A DNA stretch of 40,116 nt. It comes from a phage. A model generated the notes under the pieces. The model was not told the origin of the DNA. It saw only the letters and a list, made by a program, of their open reading frames with translations, and did not search any database. The position numbers were made by a program, and so were the translations under genes. The stretch lies in assembly GCA_011944185.1 (NCBI GenBank), contig GCA_011944185.1_3921.1; one strand, written 5' to 3'. This document shows positions 351 to 2,403 of the stretch, piece by piece. Within the stretch, counting starts at the first letter, position 1. Every line of letters starts with the position of its first letter.

Positions 351-427
351 TGCGGGTATAGAGAAAGGGCGTCTCACATGTCTCATTAGCATGGTATCGG
401 CAGGTTCGACTCCTGCACCCGCCTCCA
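351..427 (+). tRNA. tRNA-Met-like (anticodon CAT), non-canonical
   Basis: T-arm GCAGG-TTCGACT-CCTGC; anticodon stem catgt/gcatg with loop ctcatta; 1:72 T-C mismatch and 3 nt between acceptor and D-stem. Confidence 0.5.
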
Positions 428-510
428 AATTTACAGAAGACCGTTTACAGCAATATTTATTAAATTTTTAGCGGAAAAATTGAAAGATACGGTCTGGTAA
501 TACTAAACAT

Positions 511-587
511 GGTTAGGAAGCACATAAGGTATGTGCGGTCGCCTGTTAAGCGAATGGCACAGGGTTCGAATCCCTGACTAACCGCCA
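511..587 (+). tRNA. tRNA-Asn (anticodon GTT)
   Basis: acceptor ggttagg/actaacc; anticodon loop ctgttaa; T-arm CAGGG-TTCGAAT-CCCTG; CCA encoded. Confidence 0.8.
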
Positions 588-656
588 AATTTAGGAGAGA
601 AGCGATTGCTCACCGATTTGTAAGGTGCAAGTCCTTAGCCTGAATAGAAATCAAAT

Positions 657-744
657 GTGTCGTTATCCCGTAGATGGTAGCGGTGGGGACTGTAAATCCC
701 TTGTCATTGAGACTCGGTAGGTTCGACTCCTACACGGCACACCA
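657..744 (+). tRNA. tRNA-Tyr (anticodon GTA), long variable arm
   Basis: 88 nt; anticodon stem gggga/tccct with loop ctgtaaa; T-arm GTAGG-TTCGACT-CCTAC; CCA encoded. Confidence 0.8.
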
Positions 745-750
745 AATAAA

Positions 751-828
751 GGTTATGTAGTTTAATCTGGTTAAAATACTCCCCTGTCACGGGAGATGAT
801 GAGGGTTCAAATCCCTTCATAACCGCCA
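751..828 (+). tRNA. tRNA-Asp (anticodon GTC)
   Basis: acceptor ggttatg/cataacc; anticodon stem ctccc/gggag with loop ctgtcac; T-loop TTCAAAT; CCA encoded. Confidence 0.85.
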
Positions 829-1032
829 ATTTTGAGAGGGCTATTTAGCCCCTCCCTTAAAGAGTTCTTACGAGTATTCTTTAAAGGAGCAGAAGACCAA
901 ATACAGCAAGCATGTATGAAATTTCAAACCAATTCAATTTTGAAAATTTAAAACTTGGTCTGGCTCAACAAATTTACAGAAGACCGTTTACAGCAAAACT
1001 TAAACAATCTATTTCTCCGGTAAAGAAAAGGC

Positions 1033-1085
1033 GAGGGTTCGATTCCTTCACTCGGCAGATGTCGAGTTGGTGTAATGGTAGCACT
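1033..1085 (+). pseudogene. scrambled tRNA-like fragments: T-arm plus acceptor 3' strand directly abutting acceptor 5' strand plus D-arm
   Basis: GAGGG-TTCGATT-CCTTC then actcggc (1050-1056), 4-nt loop, gtcgagt (1061-1067) forming a perfect 7-bp hairpin, then D-arm-like gtgtaatggtagcac; no anticodon arm can be assembled. Confidence 0.3.
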
Positions 1086-1109
1086 TAAGATGATAAACAA
1101 CGGTCTGGT

Positions 1110-1253
1110 AATTATCTTTGTAGATAAGTTATTAAGCTTACCTGTGAGTATGCGACCACAAAGGGTGAATGGGTAAATTCTAGATTTAAACCCAAAAAGG
1201 CACATCGCTACAGACCTTAAGCAAGTCTGGGTAGCTTATCTACAAAGATAATT
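1110..1253 (+). other. candidate structured RNA/DNA element bounded by a perfect 19-bp inverted repeat (1110-1128 / 1235-1253)
   Basis: attatctttgtagataag at 1111-1128 is the exact reverse complement of cttatctacaaagataat at 1235-1252; encloses about 106 nt between tRNA fragments and tRNA-Lys. Confidence 0.4.
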
Positions 1254-1257
1254 TAAT

Positions 1258-1333
1258 GGAAGTGTAGCAGAATGGTGATGCGGCAGACTTTTAATCTGAC
1301 AGGCGATGGGTTCGAATCCCTCCACTTCTACCA
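1258..1333 (+). tRNA. tRNA-Lys (anticodon TTT)
   Basis: acceptor ggaagtg/cacttct; anticodon loop cttttaa; T-loop TTCGAAT with weak T-stem; CCA encoded. Confidence 0.75.
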
Positions 1334-1337
1334 ATAT

Positions 1338-1414
1338 GGTTCGGTCGCAGATAAGGTAATGCAAGGGTCTCATAAGCCCTATGAATGTGGGTTCGATTCC
1401 CATCTGAACCTCCA
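1338..1414 (+). tRNA. tRNA-Met (anticodon CAT)
   Basis: acceptor ggttcgg/ctgaacc; anticodon stem agggt/gccct with loop ctcataa; T-arm GTGGG-TTCGATT-CCCAT; CCA encoded. Confidence 0.8.
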
Positions 1415-1415
1415 A

Positions 1416-1491
1416 GCTGGTATAGTTAAGAAGGTTATAACACTCCCCTGATAAGGGAACATCGGTGGTTCGATTCCACCTACCAGTACCA
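1416..1491 (+). tRNA. tRNA-Ile (anticodon GAT)
   Basis: acceptor gctggta/taccagt; anticodon loop ctgataa; T-arm GGTGG-TTCGATT-CCACC; CCA encoded. Confidence 0.8.
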
Positions 1492-1506
1492 ATTTCAATA
1501 AAGTTG

Positions 1507-1535
1507 TTGACATTGAGATGTGACTACTTTATAGT
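1507..1535 (+). promoter_or_regulatory. sigma70-like promoter TTGACA-N17-TATAGT
   Basis: TTGACA at 1507-1512, 17-nt spacer, TATAGT at 1530-1535; lies upstream of the tRNA/HNH sub-cluster. Confidence 0.5.
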
Positions 1536-1739
1536 AACCTTAGTTTTCGTTGCGTAGCGTCTATTTTGCAAATTTAAAATAAATGCAAACGACAATGTTT
1601 TTCTGGCAGTAGCTTGATAGGCTAAACACCAGTGAGGTCTTCCAATCCCTCATCAAAGAATTTGGCGTACTCGCCCACGGTATGATTAATAAGGTGGGCA
1701 TCTTTAAGGGCTTTCTAAGAGAGTCTTTAAAGATAATTA

Positions 1740-1821
1740 CGGGGCGTATCTCAGCGGTCTTCTAAACCGCCGTTAACCGAGTAAGTGGAGTATGCGGGTT
1801 CGAGTCCTGCCGCCTCGACCA
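1740..1821 (+). tRNA. tRNA-like gene with Arg anticodon TCT, non-canonical architecture
   Basis: strong acceptor cggggcg/cgcctcg; T-arm GCGGG-TTCGAGT-CCTGC; perfect anticodon stem gcggt/accgc with loop cttctaa; only 7 nt between acceptor and anticodon stem (no room for a D-arm) and a 23-nt variable region. Confidence 0.45.
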
Positions 1822-1835
1822 ATTTTGGAGAAATC

Positions 1836-2183
1836 ATGAAAACTTGTATTAGGTGCAAACTTAGCAAGGATGAAAATGATTTCTACATGAAAGATGGTAG
1901 GAGAACTCATTCATACTGTAAAAAGTGTGTTAATGAGCAAACCATAGAAAGACAAAGAGCACTTAAACTCTTAGCTATTGAGTACAAAGGTGGGGTTTGT
2001 CATGATTGTGGTAAGAAGTATCATCCAGCAGTGTATGACTTCCATCATTTGAATCCTTCAGATAAAGATTTTAACATTGGTCATAGGAAAAGCCTTAAGT
2101 TCTCTCAAGAACTAAAAGATGAACTTGACAAATGTGTTTTGCTATGTTCAAATTGCCATAGGGTAAGACATGCAAAATATTAG
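1836..2183 (+). CDS. HNH endonuclease (homing-endonuclease-like)
   Basis: ATG at 1836 preceded by GGAG; Cys-rich N-terminus (CIRCK...CKKC), HH...N, then CSNCH at the C-terminus; the track start at 1785 overlaps the tRNA so the start was moved. Confidence 0.75.
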   Translation: MKTCIRCKLSKDENDFYMKDGRRTHSYCKKCVNEQTIERQRALKLLAIEYKGGVCHDCGKKYHPAVYDFHHLNPSDKDFNIGHRKSLKFSQELKDELDKCVLLCSNCHRVRHAKY

Positions 2184-2320
2184 TTAGCAGATTACTTAGA
2201 CGACCTTAGCGGGTCTTCCTGTAGGGAGGTGGTCTGTATCTCATGTTTTCCAGAACATGTAAATAATCTGAGAAGGGGCTTTACAGTGTTGAGATAATAC
2301 GGTAAGCTTCGAATTATAGT

Positions 2321-2403
2321 ATGGGACGATGTTAAGACTCTAAGGCATGAGCAACGGCCTCCAAAACCGTTTCAAAGGGGTTCAACTCCTCCGTCCCATG
2401 CCA
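2321..2403 (+). tRNA. tRNA-Trp (anticodon CCA), irregular D region
   Basis: acceptor atgggac/gtcccat; anticodon loop ctccaaa as in bacterial tRNA-Trp; T-loop TTCAACT; D region about 7 nt longer than canonical. Confidence 0.6.

What the first reader, a model, noticed from the sequence alone, without database searches (positions are those of the whole stretch)
351..2403. Non-canonical tRNA-like genes: CAT tRNA with 1:72 mismatch, D-arm-less TCT tRNA-like gene, Trp tRNA with expanded D region
351-427 has a CAT anticodon with an unpaired 1:72 and an extra nucleotide before the D-stem. 1740-1821 has an excellent acceptor, T-arm and TCT anticodon arm but only 7 nt where the D-arm should be and a 23-nt variable region. 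2321-2403 has a canonical Trp anticodon loop but about 7 extra nucleotides in the D region. These may be pseudogenes, tRNAs with unusual tertiary structure, or tRNA-like decoys.
Basis: seen in the sequence. Interest (0 to 1): 0.5.

Follow-up and report, generated by a model that had tools for sequence, protein, structure and literature searches.

The report
Phage tRNAs with rewired cores
Three odd-looking tRNA genes in a Felix O1-like phage are conserved and probably working, and one belongs to a widespread, apparently undescribed class of phage arginine tRNAs in which half of the D-arm has moved to the other side of the anticodon arm.

Summary
The window is the tRNA array of a Felixounavirus (Felix O1-like phage). 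All three sequence observations are correct.

- **351-427:** an initiator-type tRNA(CAU). Its acceptor stem nearly matches E. coli tRNA-fMet. The 1:72 mismatch is kept in relatives (U, C or A opposite C) and A11:U24 is present. It lacks the three G-C pairs of the anticodon stem and has U37 and U73.
- **1740-1821:** the main result. The "missing" D-arm is split. A 3-4 bp helix joins CNN, just 5' of the anticodon stem, to NNG inside the "23-nt variable region". A D-loop-like AAYUGGA follows. I found at least 106 distinct members in phage contigs. Every anticodon is arginine (UCU, ACG, CCU, GCG, UCG). All four helices covary. Sister phages carry a canonical tRNA-Arg(UCU) in the same slot. AGA makes up 51% of Arg codons in the window. 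I found no published description.
- **2321-2403:** a tRNA-Trp(CCA) with a conserved 9-nt connector in place of the usual 2 nt. It has A1-U72 and G73 and shows compensatory changes.

None of the three is a pseudogene. A decoy role is unlikely but not excluded. Charging and decoding are inferred, not shown.

The parts
351..427 (+). Initiator-like tRNA(CAU). Acceptor 352-357/417-422 with U351 x C423 unpaired. Extra A between the acceptor stem and U8. D-stem GAGA/UCUC 361-364/372-375 (A11:U24). Anticodon stem 377-381/389-393, anticodon 384-386, U at position 37 (387). T-arm 400-416. U424 is the discriminator. CCA 425-427.
   Evidence: ARAGORN; fold; alignment with E. coli metZ and relatives; position-1/72/73/37 tally in 27 loci.
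1740..1821 (+). Rewired tRNA-Arg(UCU), whole gene.
   Evidence: Rfam tRNA 31.7 bits; family alignments and pair counts; family scans.
1740..1746 (+). Acceptor stem 5' strand. Pairs with 1811-1817. A1818 is the discriminator and CCA is 1819-1821.
   Evidence: 99.1% of cells paired, and all 7 pairs show changes on both sides.
1747..1753 (+). Invariant U8-A9-U, then the helix H 5' strand C1750-U1751-C1752 (plus A1753, which is optionally paired).
   Evidence: T8, A9, T10 and C11 are invariant in 50/50 sequences although they were not part of the search pattern. H pairs 12-41 (UA 32, AU 9, GC 9) and 13-40 (CG 41, GC 6, UA 3) are never unpaired.
1754..1770 (+). Anticodon arm: stem GCGGU/ACCGC, loop CUUCUAA, anticodon UCU at 1761-1763.
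   Evidence: All 5 pairs show changes on both sides. Family anticodons are all arginine.
1771..1778 (+). Bulge CGUUAACC linking the anticodon stem to the helix H 3' strand. I infer it stands in for the variable loop.
   Evidence: Conserved within this subtype. Other subtypes have AGAAA, UGAAA or AGUA here.
1779..1781 (+). Helix H 3' strand GAG. Pairs with 1750-1752.
   Evidence: Covariation seen as CUC/GAG, CGC/GCG, CAC/GUG, CAG/CUG, CAU/AUG, CGG/CCG and CUU/AAG.
1782..1793 (+). D-loop-like segment UAAGUGGAGUAU. I infer that GG are the equivalents of G18/G19, the following A1789 is the equivalent of A20, and the final U is the equivalent of U48.
   Evidence: The base after GG is A in 105/106 members. 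The segment resembles the D-loops of canonical phage tRNA-Arg: a profile HMM gains 5.1 bits when the segment is moved back.
1794..1810 (+). Canonical T-arm, GCGGG UUCGAGU CCUGC.
   Evidence: 99.2% of cells paired. T-loop positions T60, T61, C62 and A64 are invariant without having been imposed by the pattern.
2321..2403 (+). tRNA-Trp(CCA)-like gene with an expanded connector. Acceptor 2321-2327(2328)/2392(2393)-2399. Connector (G)AUGUUAAGA 2328-2337. D-stem CUC/GAG 2338-2340/2349-2351. D-loop UAAGGCAU. Anticodon stem 2353-2357/2367-2371. Anticodon 2361-2363. T-stem GGGG/CCUC 2377-2380/2388-2391. G2400 is the discriminator. CCA 2401-2403.
   Evidence: Fold; alignment A6 and pair counts; 236 phage records; an alternative canonical allele in the same slot.

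Best explanation
All three are working phage tRNA genes in a Felixounavirus tRNA array. They are not debris.

**Item 2 (1740-1821)** is an arginine tRNA reading AGA.
- What is shown: a covarying 3-4 bp helix forms between CNN, immediately 5' of the anticodon stem, and NNG inside the long 'variable region'. An AAYUGGA-containing segment runs from there into the T-stem. The acceptor stem, T-arm, anticodon arm and NCCA end are canonical.
- What is inferred: relative to a normal tRNA, the D-stem 5' strand plus D-loop (positions 10-21) has been moved from before the anticodon arm to between variable-loop positions 47 and 48. The three new junctions (9->22, 47->10, 21->48) join residues that lie next to each other in the ordinary L-shape. 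The RNA could therefore still form the D-stem/anticodon-stem stack and the G18G19/T-loop elbow, and still present A20, C35, U36 and A/G73 to host ArgRS.
- It would then be charged with arginine and supply the phage's commonest Arg codon.
- Why this wiring is selected is unknown. My best guess is escape from a host or competitor factor that recognises the body of normal tRNA-Arg.

**Item 1 (351-427)** is an initiator-type tRNA(CAU), probably methionylated and formylated. Its altered anticodon stem-loop may make it insensitive to initiator-targeting nucleases such as VapC. That part is inference.

**Item 3 (2321-2403)** is a tryptophan tRNA whose 2-nt 8-9 connector is replaced by a conserved 9-nt GAUGUUAAG segment.
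For: **Context.** The window is 95% identical to Felix O1-like phages.

**Item 2**
- Homologs at 83-90% identity occur in unrelated phage groups: T5-like, rV5/phi92-like, jumbo and Streptomyces phages. Those inspected lie in or next to tRNA genes.
- On 50 distinct sequences, 94.8% of cells are paired against 63% in shuffles. 19 of 21 pairs show changes on both sides. The internal helix never breaks at its two variable pairs.
- With the anticodon left free, 112 distinct well-formed members carry TCT 84, ACG 16, CCT 10, GCG 1 and TCG 1. All are arginine. A structure-based recount gives the same result, with A after GG in 105/106.
- The discriminator is A or G in 99/112.
- A20, C35, U/G36 and A/G73 are the bacterial ArgRS identity set, and reliance on A20 is unique to Arg (PMC9976931).
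- Sf17, EP1 and Wc4-1 carry a canonical tRNA-Arg(TCT) in the syntenic slot; the upstream flank of the Sf17 gene was read and matches the window's.
- The window has no other tRNA-Arg(UCU), while AGA is 231/454 of Arg codons.
- The Felix O1 genome paper noted that a tRNA for AGA was expected but not found (PMC3185647).
- 120 of 147 instances have a same-strand tRNA within 1.5 kb. Only 3 loci also hold a separate canonical Arg tRNA with the same anticodon.
- Moving the 14-nt segment back raises the score against a profile of 88 canonical phage tRNA-Arg from 15.0 to 30.4 bits. That is 5.1 bits more than with a shuffled segment, and the gain is positive in all 50 sequences.

**Item 1**
- The acceptor (U/C/A)GCGGGU...ACCCGCC compares with E. 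coli metZ CGCGGGG...CCCCGCA. G2-C71, C3-G70, G4-C69 and the D-stem G10-A11-G12 are identical.
- Position 1 varies (U, C, A) but is never G opposite C72.
- The T-stem and anticodon stem show compensatory changes.

**Item 3**
- 96.5% of cells are paired and 9 pairs show changes on both sides in 10 variants.
- It has A1-U72 or G1-U72, G73 and CCA, which are the Trp identity elements.
- A canonical 71-nt tRNA-Trp occupies the same slot in VpaE1_ev78 and typing phage 8.
Against: - No expression, processing, charging or decoding data exist for any of the three. Function is inferred from sequence.
- The L-shape and 'moved D-loop' model for item 2 is a reading of sequence, not a structure. The tertiary partners (U8, the A14-like A, GG, the U48-like U) are invariant, so they give no covariation.
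- Many invariant positions in the first family set were fixed by my own search pattern.
- The ARAGORN 'un-permute' test is weak. It gave 50/50 detected, but 35/50 with a shuffled segment and 43/50 with a reversed one.
- The family sequences are related, so the shuffle statistics overstate independence.
- The loci are partial, so 'no canonical tRNA-Arg(UCU) in the same phage' is checked properly only for the array within this 40-kb window.
- Item 1 lacks three initiator features: the three G-C pairs at 29-31/39-41, A73 and A37.
- Item 3 rests on only 10 variants. Its T-stem has 4 good pairs plus an A.C mismatch. The Wc4-1 copy needs a bulge in its acceptor stem.
- Bas63 tRNA genes were mostly dispensable on laboratory hosts (bioRxiv 10.1101/2024.10.10.617714).
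Confidence: 0.7

Rival explanations
1. Item 2 is a truly D-arm-less, Y-shaped tRNA like mitochondrial tRNA-Ser(AGY). In this reading helix H only lengthens the anticodon stem and the 3' segment is a long variable region. There is no D-loop mimic and no elbow.
For: The 5' strand of helix H runs straight into the anticodon stem, so the secondary structure is formally an extended anticodon arm with a 3' bulge. [quoted passage not shown]
Against: The T-loop keeps the full canonical GUUCGA, and the 3' segment keeps an almost invariant AAYUGGA (A after GG in 105/106). D-arm-less mitochondrial tRNAs do not need these. The architecture is confined to arginine, the one system whose synthetase reads D-loop A20. 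The 3' segment scores as a D-loop against canonical tRNA-Arg.
Confidence: 0.15
2. One or more of the three are not translation adaptors. They could be tRNA mimics acting as decoys for tRNA-cleaving defence nucleases, or partners (Y RNAs) of the Ro60-like protein encoded just upstream of the array.
For: The Bas63 study found that the upstream gene product gp130 is structurally Ro60-like. It suggested that some annotated tRNAs of this array may be Y RNAs. Phage tRNAs are proposed to counter host tRNases (PMC10264068). Sequence alone cannot distinguish a charged tRNA from a good mimic.
Against: All three have free acceptor ends with encoded NCCA and the identity elements of one amino acid. Y RNAs instead close their 5' and 3' ends in a long stem. 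Separate elements with exactly that Y-RNA-like design lie between the tRNAs at 264-342, 431-500, 887-966 and 974-1110. The item-2 family occurs in many phage groups and keeps switching among arginine anticodons only. Canonical tRNAs of the same specificity replace items 2 and 3 in sister phages.
Confidence: 0.1
3. They are decaying pseudogenes or annotation noise left by recombination and homing-endonuclease traffic in the array.
For: HNH endonuclease genes are scattered through the array, including 1836-2182 next to item 2. Gene finders miss or down-score all three. Felix O1 authors listed some array members as pseudo-tRNAs.
Against: Near-identical copies occur in 236-263 phage records. Compensatory substitutions occur in every stem. 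At least 106 distinct item-2 relatives keep all stems and an arginine anticodon.
Confidence: 0.03

Closest known systems
Canonical bacterial and phage tRNA-Arg(UCU), e.g. E. coli argU or the Sf17 tRNA-Arg at L082:7470-7546
   Same: Same anticodon loop CUUCUAA, a similar or identical anticodon stem, the same T-arm, a 7-bp acceptor, an A/G discriminator, an encoded CCA and a GGA motif. It occupies the same slot in the array of sister phages.
   Different: There is no D hairpin between position 9 and the anticodon stem. One D-stem strand lies 5' of the anticodon arm. The other strand and the D-loop-like sequence lie 3' of it, inside what looks like a 19-23 nt variable region.
D-arm-less mitochondrial tRNA-Ser(AGY), and the engineered 'mini HisT' (PMC11551756)
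   Same: No D hairpin and a short connector between the acceptor and anticodon stems. It reads an AGN codon. The engineered example shows that the bacterial machinery can use such RNAs.
   Different: The phage RNA keeps a canonical T-loop, a GG-containing D-loop-like segment and a covarying extra helix. It is 78-83 nt rather than about 60 nt. It works, if it works, in the bacterial cytoplasm with host enzymes.
Circularly permuted tRNA genes of Cyanidioschyzon merolae (PMC3978253)
   Same: The order of tRNA segments in the gene differs from the canonical order.
   Different: In those genes the whole gene is permuted and processing restores a normal tRNA. Here the 5' and 3' ends are normal and only an internal 12-14 nt segment is displaced. 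The mature RNA itself would be non-canonical.
Bacterial initiator tRNA-fMet (E. coli metZ/W/V)
   Same: For item 1: CAU anticodon, unpaired 1x72, G2-C71, C3-G70, G4-C69, G5-C68, G6-C67, A11:U24 and a templated CCA.
   Different: C72 instead of A72. U73 instead of A73. Only one of the three G-C pairs in the anticodon stem. U37. One extra nucleotide before U8.
tRNA-Sec and allo-tRNAs with 8/4 or 8/5 acceptor/T-stem branches (PMC5389517)
   Same: Item 3 can be drawn with an 8-bp acceptor (G2328-C2392) and a 4-bp T-stem. Its best Rfam match is tRNA-Sec.
   Different: No long variable arm, a CCA anticodon and a 9-nt connector. The Rfam tRNA-Sec score of 23 bits is far below the gathering score of 47.

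Membership tests
Canonical cloverleaf tRNA (Rfam RF00005 / ARAGORN) | Detected by standard finders at their thresholds | tested here: inconclusive
   Item 1: ARAGORN yes, Rfam no hit at E<=10. Item 2: ARAGORN no, Rfam 31.7 bits (gathering score 29). Item 3: neither.
Canonical cloverleaf tRNA (Rfam RF00005 / ARAGORN) | D-arm hairpin placed 2 nt after the acceptor stem and 1 nt before the anticodon stem | tested here: not met
   Item 2 has 7 nt and no hairpin. Item 3 has a 3-bp D hairpin but a 9-10 nt connector. Item 1 has a D hairpin after 3 nt.
Canonical cloverleaf tRNA (Rfam RF00005 / ARAGORN) | 7-bp acceptor, 5-bp anticodon stem with 7-nt loop, T-arm with GTTCRA, discriminator + CCA | tested here: met
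   Met for items 1 and 2. Item 3 has a 4-bp T-stem plus A.C, and a 7-nt loop closed by a C.A mismatch.
Bacterial tRNA-Arg (ArgRS substrate) | C35 and U36/G36 | tested here: met
   112/112 distinct family members carry TCT, ACG, CCT, GCG or TCG. The window carries TCT.
Bacterial tRNA-Arg (ArgRS substrate) | A20 in the D-loop | tested here: inconclusive
   An A follows GG in 105/106 members (A1789 in the window). It lies in a displaced D-loop-like segment, so equivalence to A20 is inferred.
Bacterial tRNA-Arg (ArgRS substrate) | A/G73 discriminator | tested here: met
   G 58, A 41, T 12, C 1 among 112 members. A1818 in the window.
Bacterial tRNA-Arg (ArgRS substrate) | Arginylation by ArgRS and decoding of Arg codons | not testable with these tools
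   Needs charging assays or tRNA-seq.
Bacterial initiator tRNA-fMet | CAU anticodon and unpaired 1x72 | tested here: met
   U351 x C423. Relatives have U, C or A opposite C and never G.
Bacterial initiator tRNA-fMet | Formylase determinants G2-C71, C3-G70, G4-C69, and R11:Y24 | tested here: met
   Identical to E. coli metZ in alignment A5. The determinants are listed in PMC9976931.
Bacterial initiator tRNA-fMet | Three consecutive G-C pairs 29-41, 30-40, 31-39 | tested here: not met
   The window has U-A, G-C, G.U. Wc4-1 has A-U, G-C, G-C. I therefore describe item 1 as initiator-like, not as a full member.
Bacterial initiator tRNA-fMet | A73 | tested here: not met
   U424. All 27 copies examined have U73. 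The window's second CAU tRNA also has U73.
Bacterial tRNA-Trp | CCA anticodon, G73, A1-U72 | tested here: met
   Anticodon 2361-2363, G2400, A2321-U2399. Some relatives have G1.U72. The identity set is given in PMC9976931.
D-arm-less mitochondrial-type tRNA | No D-arm elements, short variable loop, degenerate T-loop without elbow partners | tested here: not met
   Item 2 keeps a canonical T-loop, a GG segment, an extra covarying helix and 19-23 nt after the anticodon arm.
Circularly permuted tRNA gene | The 3' half precedes the 5' half, and the termini lie inside the tRNA body | tested here: not met
   Item 2 has normal acceptor termini. A separate element at 1012-1083 does have that order.
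tRNA-Sec / allo-tRNA | Long variable arm, 8/5, 9/4 or 8/4 branch, Rfam RF01852 at or above 47 bits | tested here: not met
   Item 3 scores 23 bits and has a 4-5 nt variable loop. An 8/4 drawing is possible but has no covariation behind it.
Y RNA / YrlA (Ro60 partner) | 5' and 3' ends paired in a long stem carrying the Ro60 site, with the tRNA-like domain closed at the acceptor end | tested here: not met
   Items 1-3 have open acceptor ends with NCCA. There is no Rfam Y-RNA hit over them.

The most novel reading that the evidence does not exclude
Phages of many unrelated groups carry an arginine-only tRNA fold in which positions 10-21 are relocated into the variable loop. Host ArgRS charges it and the ribosome uses it, which would make it the first natural non-cloverleaf tRNA working in bacterial cytoplasmic translation. 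It would have been selected because its altered body escapes host tRNA-targeting immunity, or a phage's own host-tRNA-destroying activity, while still presenting A20, C35 and U36.
Probability: 0.25. Interest if true: 0.9.

Novelty: new variant of a known kind. Interest (0 to 1): 0.78.

Why it matters

A natural, widespread tRNA with different strand connectivity, working with ordinary host ArgRS, EF-Tu, RNase P and ribosomes, would show three things:
- The L-shape can be reached by another wiring.
- There would be a ready-made natural scaffold for orthogonal tRNA design.
- ArgRS's unusual dependence on D-loop A20 may explain why only arginine tRNAs took this route.

In practice these genes are missed by ARAGORN and labelled 'tRNA-OTHER' or left unannotated. 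Phage tRNA inventories and codon-compensation analyses therefore under-count Arg(UCU) and Trp. The Felix O1 genome paper explicitly noted the 'missing' AGA tRNA.

The work also gives testable candidates for phage escape from tRNA-cleaving defences.

Tried and rejected
- **ARAGORN 'un-permute' test.** Moving columns 40-53 back gives 50/50 tRNA-Arg calls. Shuffled (35/50), reversed (43/50) and shifted segments are also called, so the test mostly measures spacing. I replaced it with a profile-HMM comparison.
- **One mobile cassette.** I asked whether the rewired tRNA-Arg travels with a single homing endonuclease. The HNH next to it in the window (a weak PF01844 hit) is unrelated to the HNH_3/NUMOD4 enzyme next to it in the T5-like phages Roth39 and Kamaji.
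- **E. coli genomes.** blastn of items 1 and 2 against 5,426 complete genomes gave no match.
- **Bacterial species genomes.** A pattern scan of 185,579 genomes gave only 6 hits, all on MAG contigs, at least one of which is a phage-like tRNA array.
- **GAUGUUAAGA as a wider motif.** Extra hits upstream of unrelated tRNAs look like chance. Only L091, a Lys-UUU tRNA-like gene, shares the whole design.
- **Rfam Y RNA/YrlA models** on the inter-tRNA elements gave no hit.
- **The upstream 'RNA-binding protein'.** Pfam gives only DUF2828 and DUF7788, and a PDB sequence search finds nothing. The Ro60 link rests on a published structure comparison.
- **Literature.** Six literature searches aimed at a D-arm-less or rearranged phage tRNA-Arg found no description. 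The library covers open-access papers only.

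
Full report
**Where the window comes from**

The first 6 kb match Felix O1-like phages (Felixounavirus, Ounavirinae) at about 95% identity over 92-99% of the query in the best 25 records. The region is their tRNA array. ARAGORN finds 25 tRNAs at 98-5672 on the + strand. Rfam finds 24. The three genes in the finding are the ones on which the two tools disagree or fail.

**Check of the observation**

All three descriptions are accurate.
- **351-427.** This folds as a cloverleaf with U351 and C423 unpaired. Three nucleotides lie between the acceptor stem and the D-stem. 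Rfam's tRNA model does not report it even at E<=10. Felix O1's authors gave it a Cove score of 28.9.
- **1740-1821.** It has a perfect acceptor stem, anticodon arm (CUUCUAA) and T-arm. Only 7 nt lie where the D-arm belongs, and 23 nt follow the anticodon arm. ARAGORN misses it. Rfam gives 31.7 bits.
- **2321-2403.** It has the loop CUCCAAA and a 9-10 nt stretch between the acceptor stem and a short D-stem. Neither tool calls it.

**Item 2 (1740-1821): a rewired arginine tRNA**

*Spread.* blastn finds it in 263 phage records. These are not only Felix-like phages. At 83-90% identity it occurs in T5-like Klebsiella and Serratia phages, rV5/phi92-like phages, 350-kb jumbo phages and Streptomyces phages. 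In six of the eight loci I fetched, annotated tRNA genes lie in the same stretch. It is sometimes labelled 'tRNA-OTHER'.

*Covariation.* An alignment of nine such groups already shows compensatory changes in the acceptor, anticodon and T stems. It also shows a fourth helix. The CUC just before the anticodon stem pairs with a GAG inside the '23-nt variable region'. The Streptomyces phage has CGC and GCG at those positions.

*Family size.* Three scans of IMG/VR, with different parts of the sequence left free, gave 50, 87 and 112 distinct well-formed members.
- On the first set, 94.8% of cells pair, against 63% in shuffles and at most 47% when partners are slid.
- 19 of 21 pairs have changes on both sides.
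- The two variable pairs of the new helix are never broken: UA 32 / AU 9 / GC 9, and CG 41 / GC 6 / UA 3.

*Anticodons.* With the anticodon unconstrained, the 112 members carry TCT 84, ACG 16, CCT 10, GCG 1 and TCG 1. Every one is an arginine anticodon. A structure-based recount over all held loci gives 106 distinct members with the same five anticodons. In 105 of the 106 an A follows GG in the segment that runs into the T-stem. The discriminator is A or G in 99 of 112.

*Identity elements.* The bacterial ArgRS identity set is A20, C35, U/G36 and A/G73. Reliance on D-loop A20 is unique to the arginine system (PMC9976931).

**What the architecture is**

Shown: the gene order is as follows.
1. 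Acceptor 5' strand.
2. U-A-U.
3. C-N-N(-N), the helix H 5' strand.
4. Anticodon arm.
5. A 4-8 nt bulge (CGUUAAYC in this window; AGAAA, UGAAA or AGUA in other subtypes).
6. N-N-G, the helix H 3' strand.
7. U-A-A-Y-U-G-G-A-(3-8 nt)-U.
8. T-arm.
9. Acceptor 3' strand.
10. Discriminator, usually followed by CCA.

Inferred: this is a normal tRNA in which the D-stem 5' strand and the D-loop (positions 10-21) have been moved from between 9 and 22 to between 47 and 48.
- The strand that runs straight into the anticodon stem has the connectivity of canonical 22-26.
- AAYUGGA matches A14-R15-Y16-Y17-G18-G19-A20.
- The invariant U before the T-stem sits where U48 would pair with A15.

The three new joins (9->22, 47->10, 21->48) connect residues that are neighbours in the known L-shape. 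This follows from the 9-23-12, 45-10-25, 21-8-14 and 15-48 tertiary interactions of yeast tRNA-Phe. That is my own knowledge and was not computed here.

Two computations bear on the model.
- ARAGORN/50 native sequences and 50/50 sequences with the segment moved back. Controls show this test is weak: 35/50 with a shuffled segment and 43/50 with a reversed one.
- A profile HMM of 88 canonical phage tRNA-Arg scores native sequences at 15.0 bits and re-ordered ones at 30.4 bits. Re-ordered sequences with a shuffled segment score 25.4 bits. The paired gain of 5.1 bits is positive in all 50 sequences.

The T-loop stays fully canonical even where my search pattern did not impose it. That argues for an elbow contact.

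**Evidence that item 2 is used as tRNA-Arg**
- Sister phages Sf17, EP1 and Wc4-1 carry an ordinary 75-77 nt tRNA-Arg(TCT) at the syntenic position, after tRNA-Ile(GAT). For Sf17 I read the upstream flank and it matches the window's.
- The window has no other tRNA-Arg(UCU).
- AGA is 231 of 454 arginine codons in its 35 long ORFs.
- The Felix O1 genome paper remarked that a tRNA for AGA was expected but not found.
- Across 147 instances, 120 have a same-strand tRNA within 1.5 kb. Only three loci hold a separate canonical tRNA-Arg with the same anticodon.
- The family is essentially phage-only. There is no match in 5,426 complete E. coli genomes. There are six hits, all on MAG contigs, in 185,579 species genomes.

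**Item 1 (351-427): an initiator-type tRNA**

Aligned with E. coli metZ, the acceptor stem is (U/C/A)GCGGGU...ACCCGCC against CGCGGGG...CCCCGCA. G2-C71, C3-G70 and G4-C69 are the formylase determinants. These, together with the D-stem G10-A11-G12 (A11:U24), are identical.

Position 1 is U, C or A in different phages and is never G, always opposite C72. The mismatch itself is therefore conserved. T-stem and anticodon-stem substitutions are compensatory.

Three features do not fit a full initiator: only one of the three G-C pairs in the anticodon stem, U73, and a conserved U37. There is also one extra A before U8, which is absent in Wc4-1. I therefore call it initiator-like.

Enterobacterial VapC toxins cleave initiator tRNA in the anticodon stem-loop (discussed in PMC10264068). 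An altered stem-loop could confer resistance. This is a guess.

**Item 3 (2321-2403): tRNA-Trp with an expanded connector**

It occurs in 236 phage records and is never annotated. Ten variants give 96.5% pairing and nine pairs with changes on both sides. Examples:
- Anticodon stem: AACGG/CCGUU, GUAAG/CUUAC, GUAGG/CCUAC.
- D-stem: CUC/GAG, CAC/GUG.
- T-stem: G-C to U-A.

The connector GAUGUUAAGA is invariant. A1-U72 (or G1.U72), G73 and CCA are the tryptophan identity elements.

Other Felix-like phages (VpaE1_ev78, typing phage 8) carry a canonical 71-nt tRNA-Trp at the same site with the same upstream flank. The window has no other Trp tRNA.

One metagenomic contig (L091) has the same design with a UUU anticodon.

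The connector's GUUAA-NN-(stem strand)-UAA resembles the CGUUAAYC-(stem strand)-UAA of item 2. I cannot explain this resemblance.

**Rivals**
- **Pseudogenes:** excluded by the covariation.
- **Decoy or Y-RNA role:** not excluded by sequence, but disfavoured. The three genes have open NCCA acceptor ends and single-amino-acid identity sets. Separate elements with a true Y-RNA-like layout lie between the tRNAs (see the items noticed in passing).
- **A Y-shaped, truly D-arm-less fold for item 2:** this remains possible. I give it about 0.15.

**Novelty**

None of six searches aimed at such a tRNA, in the open-access library, turned up a description of a phage tRNA-Arg lacking or rearranging the D-arm. 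A 2020 review of non-canonical tRNAs does not mention phages. A 2024 paper states that arm-size variation is the entire known diversity of cytosolic tRNAs.

I rate item 2 as a new variant of a known kind: a tRNA with a new strand topology. Items 1 and 3 are unusual members of known kinds. All functional statements are inferences from sequence.

Noticed in passing
window 264-342, 431-500, 887-966, 974-1110 (+): Four copies of a stem element lie between the tRNAs. Each has an outer 4-bp helix (UGAC/GUCA, UUAC/GUAA, GAGC/GCUC, UUAC/GUAA), an internal loop (AGA opposite G), an inner 7-8 bp helix (AGACCAA/UUGGUCU or AGACCGU/ACGGUCU), and then UACAGCAA. The motif AGAAGACCNNNTACAGCAA occurs 4 times against 0.04 expected, and the folds agree. 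The layout is Y-RNA-like. The gene just upstream of the array encodes a protein reported to be structurally Ro60-like (Bas63 gp130). Rfam's Y-RNA models do not hit these elements.
   Followed up: partly
window 1012-1083 (+), inside the fourth element: A circularly permuted tRNA-like domain. In order it has an anticodon-like hairpin (1012-1028), a T-arm GAGGG-UUCGAUU-CCUUC (1032-1048), the acceptor 3' strand ACUCGGC (1049-1055), a 4-nt loop AGAU, the acceptor 5' strand GUCGAGU (1060-1066) and a D-arm (1069-1083). The whole is enclosed by the element's long stem. This is the design described for tRNA-mimicking YrlA Y RNAs (PMC4201824). It is conserved at 96-99% in Felix-like phages and 83% in L066.
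   Followed up: partly
window 3263-3337 (+): This tRNA has anticodon TAT here, so ARAGORN calls it Ile and it would read AUA. All 18 related loci examined have TAC (tRNA-Val) in an otherwise near-identical gene. This is a single C-to-T change at anticodon position 36, which could be an anticodon switch or a sequencing variant.
   Followed up: partly
window 1836-2182 (+): A small HNH endonuclease ORF (115 aa; Pfam HNH 17.6 bits, below the cut-off) lies between items 2 and 3. It is absent from typing phage 8 (L004), so it is an insertion polymorphism. Different HNH genes interrupt the array at other places in Felix O1.
   Followed up: partly
window 1338-1414 and 351-427 (+): Both CAU tRNAs of the array have a U73 discriminator, whereas E. 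coli Met and Ile2 tRNAs have A73. The second one has a paired G1-C72 and G28-30:C40-42, so it is an elongator type (Met or lysidine-Ile).
   Followed up: no
window 1506-1534 (+): A near-consensus promoter-like site, TTGACA-17 nt-TATAGT, lies inside the array about 200 nt upstream of item 2. It is followed by about 200 nt with only weak Rfam tmRNA-like hits (29 and 16 bits, below threshold). I read this from the sequence and did not scan for it.
   Followed up: no
L185:7428-7525 (IMG/VR contig): A phage tRNA-like gene with anticodon CUA, a potential amber suppressor, and an apparent A1 x C72 mismatch. I saw it among the chance hits of the GATGTTAAGA scan.
   Followed up: no
L082:7556-7676 (Shigella phage Sf17): Just after Sf17's canonical tRNA-Arg(TCT) lies a stretch of about 120 nt that ends in a good T-arm, the acceptor 3' strand CUUGACU, G and CCA, and begins with GGUCAAG. 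This may be another long non-canonical tRNA-like gene. It is not annotated.
   Followed up: no
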